A program made the translations under genes and the position numbers. A model generated the notes under the pieces. It was not told the origin of the DNA. It did not search any database and was given only the letters and a program-made list of their open reading frames with translations. This document shows, in pieces, positions 5,510 through 13,819 of a stretch of DNA of 53,798 nt (positions are counted from its first letter, which is position 1; each line of letters starts with the position of its first letter). This DNA comes from Azolla caroliniana (lineage: Eukaryota; Plantae; Polypodiophyta): contig JBHGNT010000203.1 in NCBI GenBank assembly GCA_043228905.1, positions 1 through 53,798 of the forward strand. Reading direction: 5' to 3'.

Positions 5510-8500
5510 TCATGTGTAGACCTTAACGGGAAGTAAAATGAACTTTTTCTCTTGAACTGTTTTGCAAGTGGGGCACTCCATCTTCTTCTTCTTGGTTTTT
5601 GCAGCCTTCCACAACTTTTCAGCACATGTAGAGCATATGTTGGCATGGCCACAATCTTTAAAGAAGGCCCGTTCATGAACTTCTTTTCCAAACTCACCGA
5701 AACATACAGCGCATTCAGGCTTCATGCAAAAAGAATTAAGAAAACAATACAGATCAGGATAACTCAATCTCTCTAAGAAAAGGAAAGGGAATGTACCAAA
5801 ATACCCATAATTTTCCTGAAATTCAAAGTGCTCCTGGTATTTTGGGTATACCAAAAATAACCCTCAGTTTCCAAAAGCTGAAGAATATTACTCAACAATT
5901 TCTCTCTTCCAACTTTTCTTTCTCTCTTTCCCCAAAGGGAGTGAATTGGAGCGAGAGGGAGGGAGAAGGCATATTTTGATAATACCTTTGAAATAACTAA
6001 GGAAATTTTCATCAAATAAAGAGGGCAATTCGGGTACTCGGACAAATTCCCAACAAACAAAATAGTAAACTCTCCATACCTGTGCCTCTTCTTGCTTTTT
6101 CTGTGTATTAGTCTTGGCCACCGTCACTTCAACTTTGAGGGCTTCCATCTCTTGGAACTGGTTTTGAAGCAGCTCTTCCTTTTCAGCCGCGATTTTTTCC
6201 TTCAACTGTGGTGGTGGTTCCACACCACAATGCCATATTTAGAAATTTTACCTCCAAATAAATCATCCGATATAATCAAAATCCTACTGAGGGAGAAAAT
6301 ATATATGGCAGATTACTAAAATTTACTTACATGGATTAGAATTTCAAACAGTAGGATCACTATTCTTTTTTATAATAAGGGTTTTTTTTAGCTGAATTAC
6401 AGATAAGGATATAGTCATTTTTCCAAAAGAGTATATGAACCATAAGTTTGCTAAATTTTTTGTGTGCCATAGGTAGCCAGAGAGAGAGCTTTGACCTAAA
6501 ATAGTGTGATAATAAAATTTGCAAGGAGGATTAAGAGATGTATACTCATGTAAGGTATCACACAGTTCCCTTCGGATTTTTTCCTGATGTTCTTTCTTGG
6601 ACTTTTTCAAATATATACACAGACACAAACACATATGTGTGTGTACTTCAAAAACGAGACAATTCAAAAGACCAGAAAAGTTAGTTAGCCCACACTCACC
6701 TCCACAATCTGCTCATTGTGCTGCTTCGTCAACAACAACATCTTTTCCCGAAATCTCTCTTCATGAGAAGTCAATTCTTCCTCCATCTGCAACTGCAAAT
6801 CTGCATTCAGCTTCATCCTGTCCATTGCATCTATTTCCTTCTGTTCGACACGCATAATCCTGTAAAAATAAGGAAGATAAAATAAAATGGTCCTAACCAT
6901 AAGAAAAGAAAAAAGTGTTCCCACTCATTGAGAAAATGCATATATATTATCAAATTAATTCATGGATTTATAACCACTTACTCCAGAGTTTCCTTTTCCA
7001 TGCTGATTCCTTCCTTTAGCTTTTTAGCCGCTTCTGCACATCGTTTTAATTCATTCATCTTTTCAGCTTTGTTTTTCTCCAAGAGACCTCGAATCTCTTT
7101 TTCACGTCTCCACAATTCTTCAAGTTTCCTTAATCGCTCTACTTCATGCTTTCCCCTCCTGTCCTCAATCTGTAACAACAACCCAGGACATGATAATCTG
7201 CAACTACATTCTCATTTAAAAAAATTGTCAGAACAATGCACAATATAAGTAGACTTGTGTTGATTCCCCTACAAGAGAATACTCAACATAGATCATACAA
7301 ACCAAAACTTTCAATTATAGGTGAAACGTAAGTGAGGATGGCAACAAACTTTATAATGTCACAAAATTAACAAACTTTATTAAAATTGTCAGAACAATGC
7401 ACAATATAAGTAGACTTGTGTTGATTCCCCTACAAGAGAATGCTCAACATAGATCATACAAACCAAAACTTTCAATTATAGGGAAAATGTATGTGAGGAT
7501 GGCAACAAACTTTATAATGGCACAAACGGAATCATGATGACCTGGTTTATTTGGTGCAGTTTACCCAAGAATTTCTTCTCTAGTTGATTTCGGTGCAGTT
7601 TATTGTATTATGCATCTTGTCTAATGTTTATCACTCCATTGTCTTTATCTTTTAACAAAGAGAATAAATTTTAACTTTTATTTACGAAATAAATATAGCC
7701 ATTTTACGTATCCATGTCTGTGCCGGAAAAAAGAGAGTTTTTTGCCAGATAGCTACCATAAAGCTAGTTGCTATGGTAGACAAAAATGTGTACTTATTCT
7801 ACCCGGTAAGACCAATAATAAATTCAATCATATAATTATCATGTACAATTTCCATAAGAAATATGAAGTTGCATACTTGTTTTTTGTACATTGCCTCCAG
7901 CTCTTTTTCTTCCTTTCTCTGATGACGAACCTCCTCACTAACTTTCTTCAGCTCAGCCTTTGCCTTGCCAAACTCTGACTTGTTACGCTCAAGAGCACAC
8001 ATCCGTTGCTTCGCCTCTTCAGATAACTCCACTATCTTCCTCGTCGCCTCTTCTTTTTGCTGGATATTAGTAACAAGGCTTAGTAACAAGGCTCTCTTCT
8101 CTTCTCTCTCTCTCTCTCTCTCTCACCTCGGACACAAGGAAGCACTAGAGGTTCGGGAGGAGTGGCTATGCTATACAAAGAGGAGCTCCATCGTAGAGTG
8201 CATGTTGTACATAAGGATGTGGATGCACGCTACATGTGGATATGCATAAAAAGAGGGGATCTTAGGGAACTATATATTGCAATTTGAATCACCATATCTA
8301 CCACTATATGATGATATCATAAGATTTGCTACTATGGGGGATATAATACTATTAGGAGATTTTAATGCACGAACCAAGGATGAACAAACAACTATATTTA
8401 ACACCGACGAGGCTGTCTATGGAGAAGTTATGGTGGAAGAGGTTGGTCTAAAGAGAAAAGCTCAAGATATGAGTGCTATAACTGAATATGGAAAACACTT

Positions 8501-11500: not shown

Positions 11501-13819
11501 CCGCCATCGTAGGTCCTTCCCTCGCTTCGGAGACATTTCCATTCTGGATCGACCTATGATAGAGATCTTTCGGAGACAAAAGCTACAATACATACACCTA
11601 ACTTGAGAATCTCGCATGTGCCAAAAACCAGATTCTCTCGTCTCTTTTCTTTTCATCTTATTTACTTTTATATTTATTGTGTAATATTTACTTTATTTTG
11701 ATTTGTTCTCAAAGACGAGAAAACATTTAAGATGTAATCTCTTATTCGGTCTTATAGGCCATTTTGGCCTCTTAAAAGACGTTAATATATCTTTCTTTTC
11801 TTTCTTTCTTTCTCTCTCTCCCCCCCCCCTCTCTCTAGATTTAGGGTTTACCAAGTCTTAACAAGTCAAATAACTGGAAAAATTTAGAGAGAGCTTTAGT
11901 CTCAATGATTACCCGCATGATAAGGAGCAAAGCATCAGTGCCCCGTGGTATAATTCATGCAGAGATTGAAGCAACCCCTATAACCACTGAGGCATTATTC
12001 CCATCAATGACCTGTCTCCAATTGCATTGGGAGCTCCCTAAACAAAGGTATGAAGGTTGGCACTTATGTCCTCAAAACAACTTGCTGAACATGGAGATAT
12101 TCATTGTTGGTATGCTGAAATGCAAAAATGGATCGCTCCTCTTTCACTCTATCGAAGCAAATGAGGACAATCATGGATCAATAGGGACAAAAACTTTGAA
12201 TATCGCTATTCTATCTGAGAGCATTATGCAGCACTCAAGTGTAGGCAAAGTATTTCTCACGACAGAATTCGAAATTAGGTGATAGTTATAACTTCACACT
12301 CGATATCTTCAGAAAACTTACGAGCTTGTAGGAACTCAGCCAACTCAATCTCAGACAACACAGGATAGGGTAAACATGTATTAGACCTTGGGCCTTGACA
12401 CCATCTAGATATCTACAACAGGATGAAATCAAGGCCCGATTCTAGTGGCCTTGTCACCAACTTCGTCCTCCCCTTGAGCAAACAGATATGTTTAGTCAAC
12501 ATGTTTATAAGGATTCCATCATCTAGATCCAACCATACTCCATGATGGCCTCAACTCCCAACATTCTAATCTATCCCATACCTCTGCCATCAATAGTTTC
12601 CTTACCACACACCATCTACATGTTACATTCCCAGGAAGATACATCATGTAAAGAGCGAAACTTGGGGCATGTACACAACAAATAGCTTGCACAAAAATTA
12701 GGACCCGCATGCGCCAAAAAGGCATGCTTATGAGGGACAATATTGGGACTTATACCTCTTCATGAGCAAAGACTCAGCCACTATTAGCAGCATATCAAAG
12801 CTCCCTGACCAGGATACAAACCACATGGGCCATACATCACCACATCATTGCTAGTGATGTTCAATCTACACAAGGCCATCTGAGGTACTTGATGAACTTT
12901 GTCATAGCCTTGCTCCACATTTACATCATTACCATAGATCTTTAGAAAATCTAGTGCTTTTATGTTTGTTTCAGTATGGGATAGCATGAATTCACCATAT
13001 TTGAAATCGTCATCTGTCTCATGCTGATTTGGGCTCTAGAAGACCTTAACATATCTTTTCTTTTCTCTCTTTAAAGAGACCTACATGGAAGCATGAACTT
13101 CACTCATATCAGAACTTAGGCAAGCATTGAATGACAAGAAAGATGATGTGCTATGATTTTCTTTCTCTTTCTTTTATCATACTGAGGCTAGATACCATAG
13201 CAGTAACTCTTTGTTTTTATTAACCCATACACTTGTGTTTCAAAACGTGTACTATCTCTCTCCAATATGAGTAGCACATAACACAGAATTATTTAATTTA
13301 AGGATACATTACATGTTCGATGTGCCTGAGGGGTAGCACAATCTTCTCATAATAACTCTCAACAGACCACTTCTTGATAACCTTGTGGTTATAATCCAAT
13401 TGGTCCATATCTCTATAGGTGGCAAGGTAGCCATAGAGAATCCTCTTCCCATCAGGGGTGGCCATACCATGACCATCACGAGGGCCATGGCGAATCTTCT
13501 CCCAGTGAACTCGCCCTCTTTGATGTTCATCCAAGCATTGGCAAAGTGTCTTTGCATCAGTATATCCAGCAGGAGAGGTTGGGAATGCAACCAAAGTTTT
13601 TCCTCTCGGACCATTGCGGCCATATAATGCAACCACTTTATCAAATTCAAGCTCTTTCATGTTTTTGAGGAATTGTCGAACCTCGCTGTTTTCTAAACAT
13701 ATTTGTGTCTTCTTAACAGGATCATAACCCGTTATCGTGTTCTCTATTATTACTACAGGAGGCCACACTATCTTATCATCCTCCCCTATATATTTGACGC
13801 CTCTTGAAGACTCCACCAT
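5510..13819 (-). CDS. SGS3-like XS-domain / coiled-coil protein with C-terminal C3HC4 RING finger (~457 aa). Exons 13819-13313, 8059-7877, 7169-6982, 6859-6700, 6205-6080, 5719-5510
   Basis: Exon 1 has SGS3-type XS motifs (IVWPPVVIIENT, YGRNGPRG, GKRILYGYLAT..DMD, SYYEKIV). The middle exons are E/K-rich coiled coil. The last exon is C-x2-C-x16-C-x-H-x3-C-x2-C-x16-C-x2-C. All junctions are GT-AG and phase-compatible (0,0,2,0,0). An in-frame TGA just upstream of ATG 13819 and an acceptor at 13849-13850 imply a 5' UTR intron. Confidence 0.82.
7222..7525. repeat. Intronic tandem duplication, ~160-bp unit
   Basis: aaaattgtcagaacaatgcacaatataagtagacttgtg... starts at 7222 and again at 7382, near-identical. 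Confidence 0.92.
8125..11836 (+). mobile_element. 5'-truncated non-LTR retrotransposon (APE endonuclease - RT - C-terminal CCHC knuckle), RTE/RTEX-like, antisense in the intron of the XS-RING gene
   Basis: Endonuclease motifs: GSGGVAMLY (8126-8287 frame), LLGDFNAR, STIDY, DH. RT motifs: QAGFR, FVDFRKAFDTV, GVKQGCPLSPTLF, LLYADD, YLGV. C-terminal IEVGRY..ERICQLC...ESEEHYVCHC. ORFs 8277, 10644 and 11034 share one frame. (CT)n tracts flank both ends. Confidence 0.93.
8277..11606 (+). pseudogene. LINE ORF2 (EN-RT) disrupted by a frameshift/deletion near 8285 and in-frame TGA at 10629, 11004 and probably 11472
   Basis: A single reading frame continues through the three TGA codons to a TGA at 11604-11606. 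Confidence 0.85.
11852..12130 (+). mobile_element. Second, more diverged fragment of the same LINE family (homologous to ~10440-10720)
   Basis: agtcttaacaag...gatttagagaga...cgcatgataaggagcaaagcatc...gggagctccctaaa...tcattgttggtatgctgaaatgca aligns with the intact copy; contains frameshifts. Confidence 0.88.

What the first reader, a model, noticed from the sequence alone, without database searches (positions are those of the whole stretch)
5510..13819. SGS3-like XS protein fused to a C-terminal RING finger: candidate RNA-sensing E3 ubiquitin ligase
Seen: six in-phase exons join an XS domain, a long coiled coil and an intact C3HC4 RING. The RING has C-x-H-x3-C spacing at the extreme C-terminus, as in IAP/MDM2/BOI/LOG2-type E3 ligases. 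Established: XS domains bind dsRNA with 5' overhangs; SGS3 is zf-XS/XS/coiled-coil and IDN2/FDM is zf-XS/XS/coiled-coil/XH. I know no characterised XS protein that ends in a RING. Inference: a dsRNA-binding, dimerising E3 could ubiquitinate silencing factors, viral suppressors or ribosomes on aberrant or viral RNA, linking PTGS to proteolysis.
Basis: partly seen in the sequence, partly recalled or inferred. Interest (0 to 1): 0.82.

Follow-up and report, generated by a model that had tools for sequence, protein, structure and literature searches.

The report
Ancient SGS3 sister with RING finger
This plant (likely fern) gene is spliced into one message that joins the RNA-recognition domain of the silencing protein SGS3 to a RING finger, and it belongs to an almost unstudied family, found from freshwater algae to gymnosperms, that likely tags proteins on bound RNA with ubiquitin.

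Summary
Six GT-AG exons give a 457-aa XS / long helix / C3HC4 RING protein. Assembled contigs from public runs show every junction, one 1,621-nt contig carrying all exons. It is not a one-off fusion: the architecture occurs in Adiantum, Ceratopteris, Selaginella, Diphasiastrum, Chara, Klebsormidium and a conifer-like group. These XS domains form one branch beside SGS3 (support 86/87); a fern-only SGS3-RING fusion is rejected (p-AU 8e-6). Ceratopteris keeps both genes. No named flowering-plant member was found. The architecture is mentioned in one sentence in print for Selaginella (PMC5907777); ten searches found no study of it. The window's branch lacks SGS3's zinc finger, disordered N-terminus and basic ARHS motif, so SGS3-like dsRNA binding is unproven. 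The RING keeps all zinc ligands and E2-contact positions. Best reading: an RNA-tethered ubiquitin ligase, probably independent of the tasiRNA pathway. RNA binding, ligase activity and substrates are untested. New variant of a known kind.

The parts
14577..14675 (-). 5' UTR exon (at least 99 nt; true start not known)
   Evidence: Loose end of contig X2 record 7 at 13848 maps here; GT donor at 14576, AG acceptor at 13849
13820..13848 (-). Untranslated start of the first coding exon; in-frame TGA 15 nt before the ATG; an AUG-UAA minimal upstream ORF is formed across the splice junction
13313..13819 (-). Coding exon 1 (aa 1-169): XS domain, RRM-like fold, running into the first helix of the coiled coil
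   Evidence: Pfam XS E 1.6e-18; AlphaFold2 pLDDT 90; matches IDN2 XS crystal structure 4E8U, Z 15.8, rmsd 2.4 over 138 residues
8060..13312 (-). Intron 1 (5,253 nt), holding an antisense LINE-type retroelement
   Evidence: Spliced out in 4 of 4 runs; RVT_1 E 4.9e-33 in ORF 8250-10631 +
7877..8059 (-). Coding exon 2 (aa 170-230): helical / coiled-coil region
   Evidence: Joints on both sides in 4 of 4 runs; continuous helix in the homologue model
6982..7169 (-). Coding exon 3 (aa 231-293): helical / coiled-coil region
6700..6859 (-). Coding exon 4 (aa 293-346): helical / coiled-coil region
6080..6205 (-). Coding exon 5 (aa 347-388): end of the helical region
5510..5719 (-). Coding exon 6 (aa 389-457): C3HC4 RING (391-440), 17-residue tail ending P-V-K-V-Y-T, stop
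   Evidence: Pfam zf-RING_2 E 4.4e-7, zf-C3HC4_3 E 2e-6; joint to exon 5 in 5 different runs; ligands
5264..5509 (-). 3' UTR (extent covered by contigs; true end not known)
   Evidence: Contigs of X1, X3, X7 reach 5264-5313

Best explanation
The gene encodes an ancient sister paralogue of SGS3 with an added C-terminal RING finger, and the protein likely works as an RNA-tethered ubiquitin ligase: its XS domain would bind structured RNA, its long helix would dimerise it, and its RING would ubiquitinate proteins on that RNA. SHOWN: spliced gene; XS fold; intact RING; family membership; homology to SGS3 over zf-XS, XS and coiled coil in the finger-bearing members, with the RING starting where SGS3 ends. 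FROM KNOWN FAMILIES: XS proteins (SGS3, IDN2, FDM1) bind dsRNA with 5' overhangs; SGS3 and IDN2 dimerise through the coiled coil; C-terminal RING-HC domains of this type are E3 ligases. INFERRED: RNA binding by this XS (about 0.65), ligase activity (about 0.7), coupling of the two. Most likely substrates are proteins of the RNA particle itself (Argonaute-bound or stalled mRNPs, SGS3 or RDR partners, transposon or viral proteins), so that it clears or resets such particles rather than recruiting RDR6 as SGS3 does. The substrate class is the weakest step.
For: Architecture in 10 of 142 representatives hit by the XS exon, named from Klebsormidium, Chara (2), Selaginella, Diphasiastrum (2), plus Adiantum (2 species) and Ceratopteris and a group placed with Ginkgo and Cryptomeria. 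All 19 RING-bearing rows fall in one 30-row branch; 0 of 49 rows in the SGS3 branch and 0 of 19 in the XS-terminal branch carry a RING. Profile-profile match to SGS3 over 392 columns, probability 100. XS core kept: P20, P21, F79, G85, A89, G102 100%, R103 83%, W106 87%, D137 95% of 24 rows; mean net charge +3.5 against +1.7 in SGS3 rows. RING: loop-1 Ile/Val in 20 of 23 rows, loop-2 Pro 23 of 23, aromatic penultimate residue 21 of 23, tail of 17 residues in most rows from Chara to ferns; family profile's best solved relatives are RNF4, RNF8, cIAP1, TRIM32, MEX3C, MGRN1. XS-to-RING spacer 256-269 aa in 12 of 15 proteins (range 242-284). Precedent for RNA-binding domain plus RING in plants: MEL2 (10.1101/2021.03.24.433842, passages).
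Against: The SGS3 motif K-A-R-H-S-Y-G-P-Q-G-H-R-G is degraded: positions 63, 64, 65-68 that are Arg 79%, His 79%, Pro 95% in SGS3 are variable in this clade, and the window has Pro for the His of G-H-R-G; whether these residues touch RNA was not established here. zf-XS and the N-terminal disordered region are absent in the window's branch. The residue after the last Cys ('linchpin', recalled concept) is Lys in 9, Arg in 5 and Asn/Glu/Met/Asp in 9 of 23 rows; three conifer-like rows lack the loop-1 hydrophobe. Listed differences between the window's exons 5-6 and close copies are mostly non-synonymous (12 vs 2 and 9 vs 1 codons), which fits relaxed constraint as well as positive selection. Some members of the clade have no RING (Marchantia Mp3g16610 model, Coleochaete P0012, Chara P0071). 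Monophyly including the algae is only 86/87 and the groups were drawn from an earlier tree of the same data. No biochemical or genetic evidence exists in what I could search.
Confidence: 0.5

Rival explanations
1. Dedicated regulator of SGS3-family proteins: it pairs with SGS3 (or another XS protein) through the homologous coiled coil and ubiquitinates its partner; its own XS domain serves protein contact rather than RNA binding.
For: Coiled coil aligns with that of SGS3 to SGS3's end; SGS3-specific basic motif, zf-XS and disordered N-terminus lost in this branch; Ceratopteris and Marchantia hold both paralogues.
Against: Kept in Selaginella moellendorffii, which PMC5907777 describes as lacking the TAS machinery and a zf-XS-bearing SGS3; XS core and positive net charge are conserved; coiled-coil alignments are easily spurious; only 17-21% identity to SGS3 in that region.
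Confidence: 0.17
2. Antiviral or anti-transposon sensor-ligase in an arms race: it recognises foreign dsRNA replication intermediates and ubiquitinates viral or element proteins, or builds signalling chains.
For: Non-synonymous excess around intact zinc ligands between close copies (pN/pS about 1.6 and 2.3; a ratio of 0.2 rejected at P 0.0015 and 0.0034); RING varies more than XS or coiled coil in the conifer-like rows (0.26 vs 0.10 and 0.09), in cluster P0005 (8 of 61 variable sites vs 0 of 158) and in the Adiantum pair (0.25 vs 0.11, 0.13).
Against: A ratio of 1 is not rejected (P 0.42, 0.36), site lists are incomplete and few; no RING excess in 5 or more of the 10 groups compared, including ferns at wide distance and cluster P0076; the fast part is the RING, not the putative sensor; family is low-copy.
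Confidence: 0.15
3. The RING is a structural or dimerising zinc module with little or no ligase activity, and the protein is a variant RNA-binding scaffold of the SGS3 type.
For: Variable linchpin position and loss of the loop-1 hydrophobe in 3 of 23 rows; RING absent from some clade members; apparent relaxed constraint between close copies.
Against: Loop-1 Ile/Val, loop-2 Pro and the aromatic tail are kept from Chara to ferns and gymnosperm-like rows; the window's own RING has all of them and Lys at the linchpin.
Confidence: 0.13
4. Artefact: the RING exon belongs to another transcript, or the join is a recent local accident.
For: Weak acceptors (AAG before exon 6; exon 2 next to a microsatellite and a LINE); the protein collection holds only an exon-1 read-through product of this gene (P0001); evidence comes from contigs, not raw reads.
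Against: All junctions in contigs, one contig spanning all exons; same join in a 92%-identical relative (X4); collinear full-length homologues at 44-53% identity in other ferns.
Confidence: 0.02

Closest known systems
SGS3 (SUPPRESSOR OF GENE SILENCING 3), e.g. Ceratopteris KP509_28G062500, Marchantia Mp1g15560, Hibiscus GMI81161
   Same: XS domain followed by a long coiled coil; finger-bearing relatives align to SGS3 over zf-XS, XS and coiled coil; sister branch in the XS tree when rooted on the XS-terminal proteins
   Different: C-terminal RING; no zf-XS and no long disordered N-terminus in the window's branch; ARHS motif lost; 32-33% identity in XS; separate gene in the same genomes
Selaginella moellendorffii XS + RING protein (XP_002979112 in PMC5907777; XP_024519004 / XP_024525141 here)
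   Same: Same architecture, no zf-XS, same branch. That XP_002979112 is the same gene as the two records seen here is assumed, not checked
   Different: Only mentioned in one sentence, treated as a non-functional SGS3; not recognised as a family; one record is auto-named 'vicilin-like seed storage protein'
IDN2 / FDM1-5 (XH/XS proteins of RNA-directed DNA methylation)
   Same: XS fold (4E8U is the top structural match) and coiled coil
   Different: No XH domain; RING in its place; 18-20% identity in the structural alignment
C-terminal RING-HC ligases (RNF4, cIAP/XIAP, MEX3C, MGRN1/LOG2, IDOL, MDM2)
   Same: C-x-H-x3-C spacing, RING at the extreme C-terminus, short tail with a penultimate aromatic residue; best profile and fold matches
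   Different: No BIR, KH, FERM or other substrate domain of those families; the window's RING alone had no solved relative at E 0.1; MDM2 has a different ligand set (recalled)
RNA-binding RING proteins (rice MEL2; animal MEX3, Roquin, TRIM25, ZNF598 recalled)
   Same: RNA-recognition module and RING in one chain: a functional analogy
   Different: Unrelated domain sets; none uses an XS domain

Membership tests
SGS3 orthologues | XS domain | tested here: met
   Pfam PF03468 E 1.6e-18; fold match to 4E8U
SGS3 orthologues | zf-XS finger upstream of XS | tested here: not met
   Only 13 residues precede XS; in-frame stop 15 nt before the ATG in the spliced leader. A homologous finger is present in other members of the RING branch
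SGS3 orthologues | Long N-terminal disordered / prion-like region (10.64898/2026.01.02.697351, passages) | tested here: not met
SGS3 orthologues | Coiled-coil region after XS | tested here: met
   218 residues rich in E/K/L/R; helices 173-316 and 328-404 in the model of the Adiantum homologue. Coiled-coil pairing itself is inferred
SGS3 orthologues | Placement in the SGS3 clade | tested here: not met
   SGS3 branch 96/91 excludes it; grouping with Ceratopteris SGS3 rejected, p-AU 7.9e-6
SGS3 orthologues | Binding to dsRNA with 5' overhang; partnership with RDR6 | not testable with these tools
   Needs EMSA and co-IP
SGS3-like (XS-domain) superfamily as defined in PMC3378875 | At least one of XS, XH, zf-XS | tested here: met
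IDN2/FDM | C-terminal XH domain | tested here: not met
   No PF03469 hit on the six exons scanned separately or on full-length homologues
RING-HC (C3HC4) E3 ligases | Eight zinc ligands in C3HC4 order | tested here: met
   C391, C394, C411, H413, C417, C420, C437, C440; Pfam above cut-off
RING-HC (C3HC4) E3 ligases | E2-contact residues (loop-1 hydrophobe, helix hydrophobe, loop-2 Pro; positions recalled) | tested here: met
   V393, L424/W425, P438 in the window; 20 of 23 and 23 of 23 rows for loop 1 and loop 2
RING-HC (C3HC4) E3 ligases | Basic linchpin after the last Cys (recalled) | tested here: inconclusive
   Lys in the window; Lys or Arg in 14 of 23 rows only
RING-HC (C3HC4) E3 ligases | Ubiquitin transfer activity | not testable with these tools
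   Needs an in vitro assay
IAP family | BIR domain | tested here: not met
   No BIR hit on any exon or homologue
BOI/BRG and LOG2 plant ligases | Common descent of the RING and the family-specific N-terminal region | not tested
   No BOI or LOG2 sequences were fetched; only animal MGRN1 appeared as a profile hit
XS-coiled coil-RING family (unnamed; this report) | XS in the RING-bearing branch, spacer about 260 aa, RING with 17-residue P-x-x-phi-Y-x tail, intron right after XS | tested here: met

The most novel reading that the evidence does not exclude
Streptophyte algae and non-flowering land plants carry a second, overlooked arm of the SGS3 system, lost in flowering plants: an RNA-activated ubiquitin ligase that recognises silenced, stalled or viral RNA through XS and destroys the proteins bound to it, a plant counterpart of animal RNA-sensing ligases, with a RING surface under pressure from pathogens.
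Probability: 0.2. Interest if true: 0.85.

Novelty: new variant of a known kind. Interest (0 to 1): 0.57.

Why it matters
SGS3 is treated as a single lineage without functional divergence (10.1101/2022.01.18.476847, passages; the word RING does not occur in its main text). The data here point to a duplication older than land plants whose second copy carries a ligase module, coexists with SGS3 in Ceratopteris, survives in Selaginella and has no named flowering-plant member, which would explain why Arabidopsis genetics never met it. If the mechanism holds, it is a direct link between XS-domain RNA recognition and protein turnover, testable in Ceratopteris (KP509_09G097400). It also warns that such proteins are auto-annotated as SGS3 or split after exon 1, which can distort presence/absence claims for SGS3.

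Tried and rejected
No whole genome is held for this window, so paralogues and SGS3 in the same genome could not be counted. The look-up of sequencing runs listed no holder on record as RNA; run kinds are guesses. A word-seeded search for longer relatives of exon 1 found none among 166 candidates, and the alignment search returned only 6 of 7,986 candidates scored, missing known members: these searches are insensitive and their blanks mean nothing. Sequence search of the PDB with the XS exon gave only repeat artefacts (WD40 designs) and with the RING exon nothing. ESM Atlas: window sequence not held; homologues P0195 and P0003 gave no feature hits, and structure neighbours of P0003 were XS or RING clusters, none with both. 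Complex prediction of two copies of the Adiantum homologue's residues 355-474 with zinc: no verdict (0.16, 0.21; mark 0.32). NCBIfam: no hits. Earlier findings of this scan: nothing by words, sequence or place. The IDN2 XS structure paper is not held, so RNA-contact residues could not be taken from it. Rejected: a recent fern-specific fusion of SGS3 with a RING; an N-terminal zf-XS exon further upstream; alternative in-frame acceptors for exon 6 at 5770-5833, none seen in contigs. RNA editing at 5719 and 6741 was considered and cannot be told from allelic or assembly differences without DNA of the same individual. Rows left out of trees: P0001 (the window's own exon) and P0036 (repeat) by choice, 11 rows with partial XS, 42 of 66 XS-terminal rows; one search used 53 chosen rows. 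IDN2/FDM proteins were not in the hit list and are not in the trees. Supplements were not read: Fig. S5/S6 of PMC5907777 and the SGS3 tree and protein lists of the bioRxiv paper (closed) may include members of this family.

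
Full report
THE GENE. On the minus strand six exons (13819-13313, 8059-7877, 7169-6982, 6859-6700, 6205-6080, 5719-5510) are separated by GT-AG introns of 5,253, 707, 122, 494 and 360 nt and give one open frame of 457 codons. Pfam finds XS on exon 1 (E 1.6e-18) and RING families on exon 6 (zf-RING_2 E 4.4e-7, zf-C3HC4_3 E 2e-6, both just over the curated cut-off); exons 2-5 have no hit above cut-off. The 218 residues between are dominated by Glu, Lys, Leu, Ala and Arg.

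SPLICING IS REAL. Eight public runs were listed, four holding 27-28% of the words of 5400-8200, about the exonic share. Laid on 4800-15200, contigs of 4 of 4 runs skip 8060-13312, 7170-7876, intron 3 and intron 5 at the predicted GT-AG ends; intron 4 is listed as a joint for X2 alone, with loose ends matching the next exon in the other three. One contig of 1,621 nt (X2 record 7) carries the 3' UTR, the coding exons and a 99-nt loose end that maps to 14577-14675 behind a GT donor. A run under another species label (X4) has a 1,878-nt contig, about 92% identical in exon 6, with the same exon 5-6 joint. These are assembled contigs whose RNA status is a guess by the tool; they show the joins, not abundance. 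The spliced leader has an in-frame stop 15 nt before the ATG, so the protein has no upstream zinc finger.

IT IS A FAMILY. phmmer with exon 1 against 1.84 billion representatives gave 142 hits. Ten of the 142 end in a RING: six named (Diphasiastrum x2, Selaginella, Chara x2, Klebsormidium) and four unnamed. An alignment search added Adiantum capillus-veneris, A. nelumboides and Ceratopteris richardii, 44-47% identical to the window over the whole length, so the window is most likely a fern. A search with unnamed P0005 found four close unnamed relatives and a Cryptomeria model that breaks off inside the RING; P0005 groups with Ginkgo and Cryptomeria at 100/99. XS-only models from Diphasiastrum and Ginkgo end by running into an intron at the same position as intron 1 here, a shared gene-structure trait. 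Two sub-branches exist: one without a finger (window, other ferns, gymnosperm-like rows, Diphasiastrum P0003) and one with an N-terminal finger (Diphasiastrum P0072, unnamed P0076 and P0118), as in Chara P0082 and Klebsormidium. The finger-bearing profile aligns with SGS3 over zf-XS, XS and coiled coil (392 columns, probability 100), and the RING begins beyond SGS3's end. The ancestral form was therefore probably zf-XS / XS / coiled coil / RING (inference).

PHYLOGENY. In a quick tree of 98 XS domains all 19 RING-bearing rows lie in one 30-row branch; none of 49 SGS3-branch rows and none of 19 XS-terminal rows has a RING. A careful tree of 53 rows gives the RING branch 86/87, SGS3 96/91 and the eight-row fern group 99/97; the groups were drawn from the first tree, the algal branches are long, and IDN2/FDM are absent, so the deep monophyly is likely rather than shown. 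Holding the fern RING rows together with Ceratopteris SGS3 is rejected (p-AU 7.9e-6; hypothesis named after the tree was seen). Ceratopteris has both KP509_28G062500 (SGS3 branch) and KP509_09G097400; Marchantia has Mp1g15560 and an XS-only model Mp3g16610 in the RING branch. No named flowering-plant protein falls in the RING branch, although flowering-plant SGS3 and XS-terminal proteins were found at far weaker scores; the clusters of unnamed P0076 (15 of 35 members listed) and P0118 (10 of 10) show no NCBI or UniRef source. Loss in flowering plants is thus suggested by one search, not proven; mosses and hornworts are unresolved.

DOMAIN ANATOMY. The window's XS exon folds with mean pLDDT 90 and matches the IDN2 XS crystal structure 4E8U (Foldseek E 2.9e-7; Z 15.8, rmsd 2.4, 138 residues), then ordinary RRMs at Z under 9. 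The structural core is conserved in the branch, but the stretch that reads K-A-R-H-S-Y-G-P-Q-G-H-R-G in SGS3 is variable, K-V-V-A-L-Y-G-R-N-G-P-R-G in the window. The Adiantum homologue folds as XS, helices 173-316 and 328-404, and RING (pLDDT 78, pTM 0.42, so domain arrangement is not resolved). The RING has all eight ligands. Across 23 rows, some near-identical, the loop-1 Ile/Val is present in 20, the loop-2 Pro in 23, an aromatic penultimate residue in 21, and the position after the last Cys is Lys or Arg in 14. The meaning of these positions for E2 binding and RING dimerisation is recalled knowledge. The family profile's best solved relatives are RNF4, RNF8, cIAP1, TRIM32, MEX3C and MGRN1. 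The XS-to-RING spacer is 256-269 residues in 12 of 15 proteins, suggesting a constrained geometry.

A HINT OF FAST CHANGE. Three runs hold a second copy about 89-92% identical. Among the differences listed in exons 5-6, 9 of 10 changed codons (second copy in X1) and 12 of 14 (X4) alter the amino acid, none at a zinc ligand. A ratio of 0.2 is rejected (P 0.003, 0.0015) but neutrality is not; the lists omit sites near contig ends. The RING also varies more than the rest in conifer-like rows and the Adiantum pair, but not in most other groups. This is a lead only.

MECHANISM. XS proteins bind dsRNA with 5' overhangs (PMC3378875, passages); SGS3 dimerises through its coiled coils and needs its N-terminal region (10.64898/2026.01.02.697351, passages); the IDN2 coiled coil mediates homodimers (PMC3342958, start of abstract in the listing). 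A conserved XS plus conserved ligase-type RING most simply makes an RNA-tethered E3 that ubiquitinates proteins of the particle it binds (0.5). Retention in Selaginella moellendorffii, described as lacking TAS machinery (PMC5907777, section 10 read), argues against a role confined to tasiRNA biogenesis. Rivals: an SGS3-directed regulator (0.17), an antiviral or anti-transposon sensor (0.15), a non-catalytic scaffold (0.13), artefact (0.02).

WHAT IS IN PRINT. PMC5907777 states in one sentence that the Selaginella XS protein has no zf-XS and instead a C-terminal RING. The survey of 455 SGS3 proteins (10.1101/2022.01.18.476847, passages) reports one branch and never uses the word RING in its main text; its supplements were closed. 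Searches for XS domain with RING, E3 ligase, ubiquitin ligase, PF03468 or SGS3-like found no study of the family; the library lacks most subscription journals. MEL2 is a plant precedent for an RRM and RING in one chain (passages).

VERDICT. Observation confirmed; interpretation partly supported. An undescribed, ancient SGS3-sister family with a ligase module, seen once in passing. New variant of a known kind; interest 0.57.

Noticed in passing
window 8130-11800 (+), intron 1: LINE-type retroelement antisense to the gene: RT ORF 8250-10631 (RVT_1 E 4.9e-33) continues in the same frame to 11474 across two stop codons; many diverged copies in the runs laid. It starts beside a (CT)n tract and a 13-bp tandem duplication (8067-8093) directly before the exon 2 acceptor, yet is spliced out cleanly.
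   Followed up: partly
window 11845-12282 (+): Degenerate second piece resembling the 3' part of the same LINE ORF.
   Followed up: no
window 14577|13848 (-): Splicing of the leader intron creates an AUG-UAA minimal upstream ORF 31 nt before the main ATG, a possible translational control.
   Followed up: no
window 5719 and 6741: All covering contigs differ from the window at these two coding positions (P389S in 5 runs, M333V in 4 runs): allele, assembly error or, less likely, editing.
   Followed up: partly
runs X1, X3, X7 laid on 5264-8059: A second copy of the gene, about 89-92% identical, with mostly amino-acid-changing differences in the RING exon; X4 resembles that copy.
   Followed up: partly
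window 7221-7526: 161-bp unit duplicated in tandem (95% match) inside intron 2.
   Followed up: no
window 21415-25334 (+): Large multi-exon gene; three long exons had no Pfam hit. The last holds a V-F-V-H-G-L motif that recalls SERAC1-like alpha/beta hydrolases (recalled, untested).
   Followed up: no
window 30320-32359 (+), 40670-41392 (+), 44146-46127 (-): Neighbouring PPR gene (10 PPR_2 stretches), heavy-metal-associated domain gene, and ubiquitin-specific protease exons. No sign of a functional link.
   Followed up: no
window 18476-19636 (-): Two adjacent ORFs of 274 and 111 aa in a GC-richer stretch, no Pfam hit.
   Followed up: no
P0009, P0163, P0004, P0006, P0202: Annotation problems in the family: one Selaginella record named vicilin-like and its near twin SGS3 homolog; Ginkgo and Diphasiastrum models stop in the intron after XS; the Cryptomeria model stops inside the RING.
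   Followed up: partly
P0008, P0012, P0071: Members of the RING branch without a RING in their models (Marchantia Mp3g16610, Coleochaete, one Chara protein): true loss or incomplete models.
   Followed up: no
P0098 (Cymbomonas tetramitiformis), P0086 (MMETSP): XS-domain proteins outside streptophytes, although XS/SGS3 is described as absent from chlorophytes; long branches, placement unsure.
   Followed up: no
cluster of P0005 (15 distinct sequences): 8 variable sites in 61 RING-and-tail residues against 0 in 158 XS residues among near-identical proteins.
   Followed up: partly
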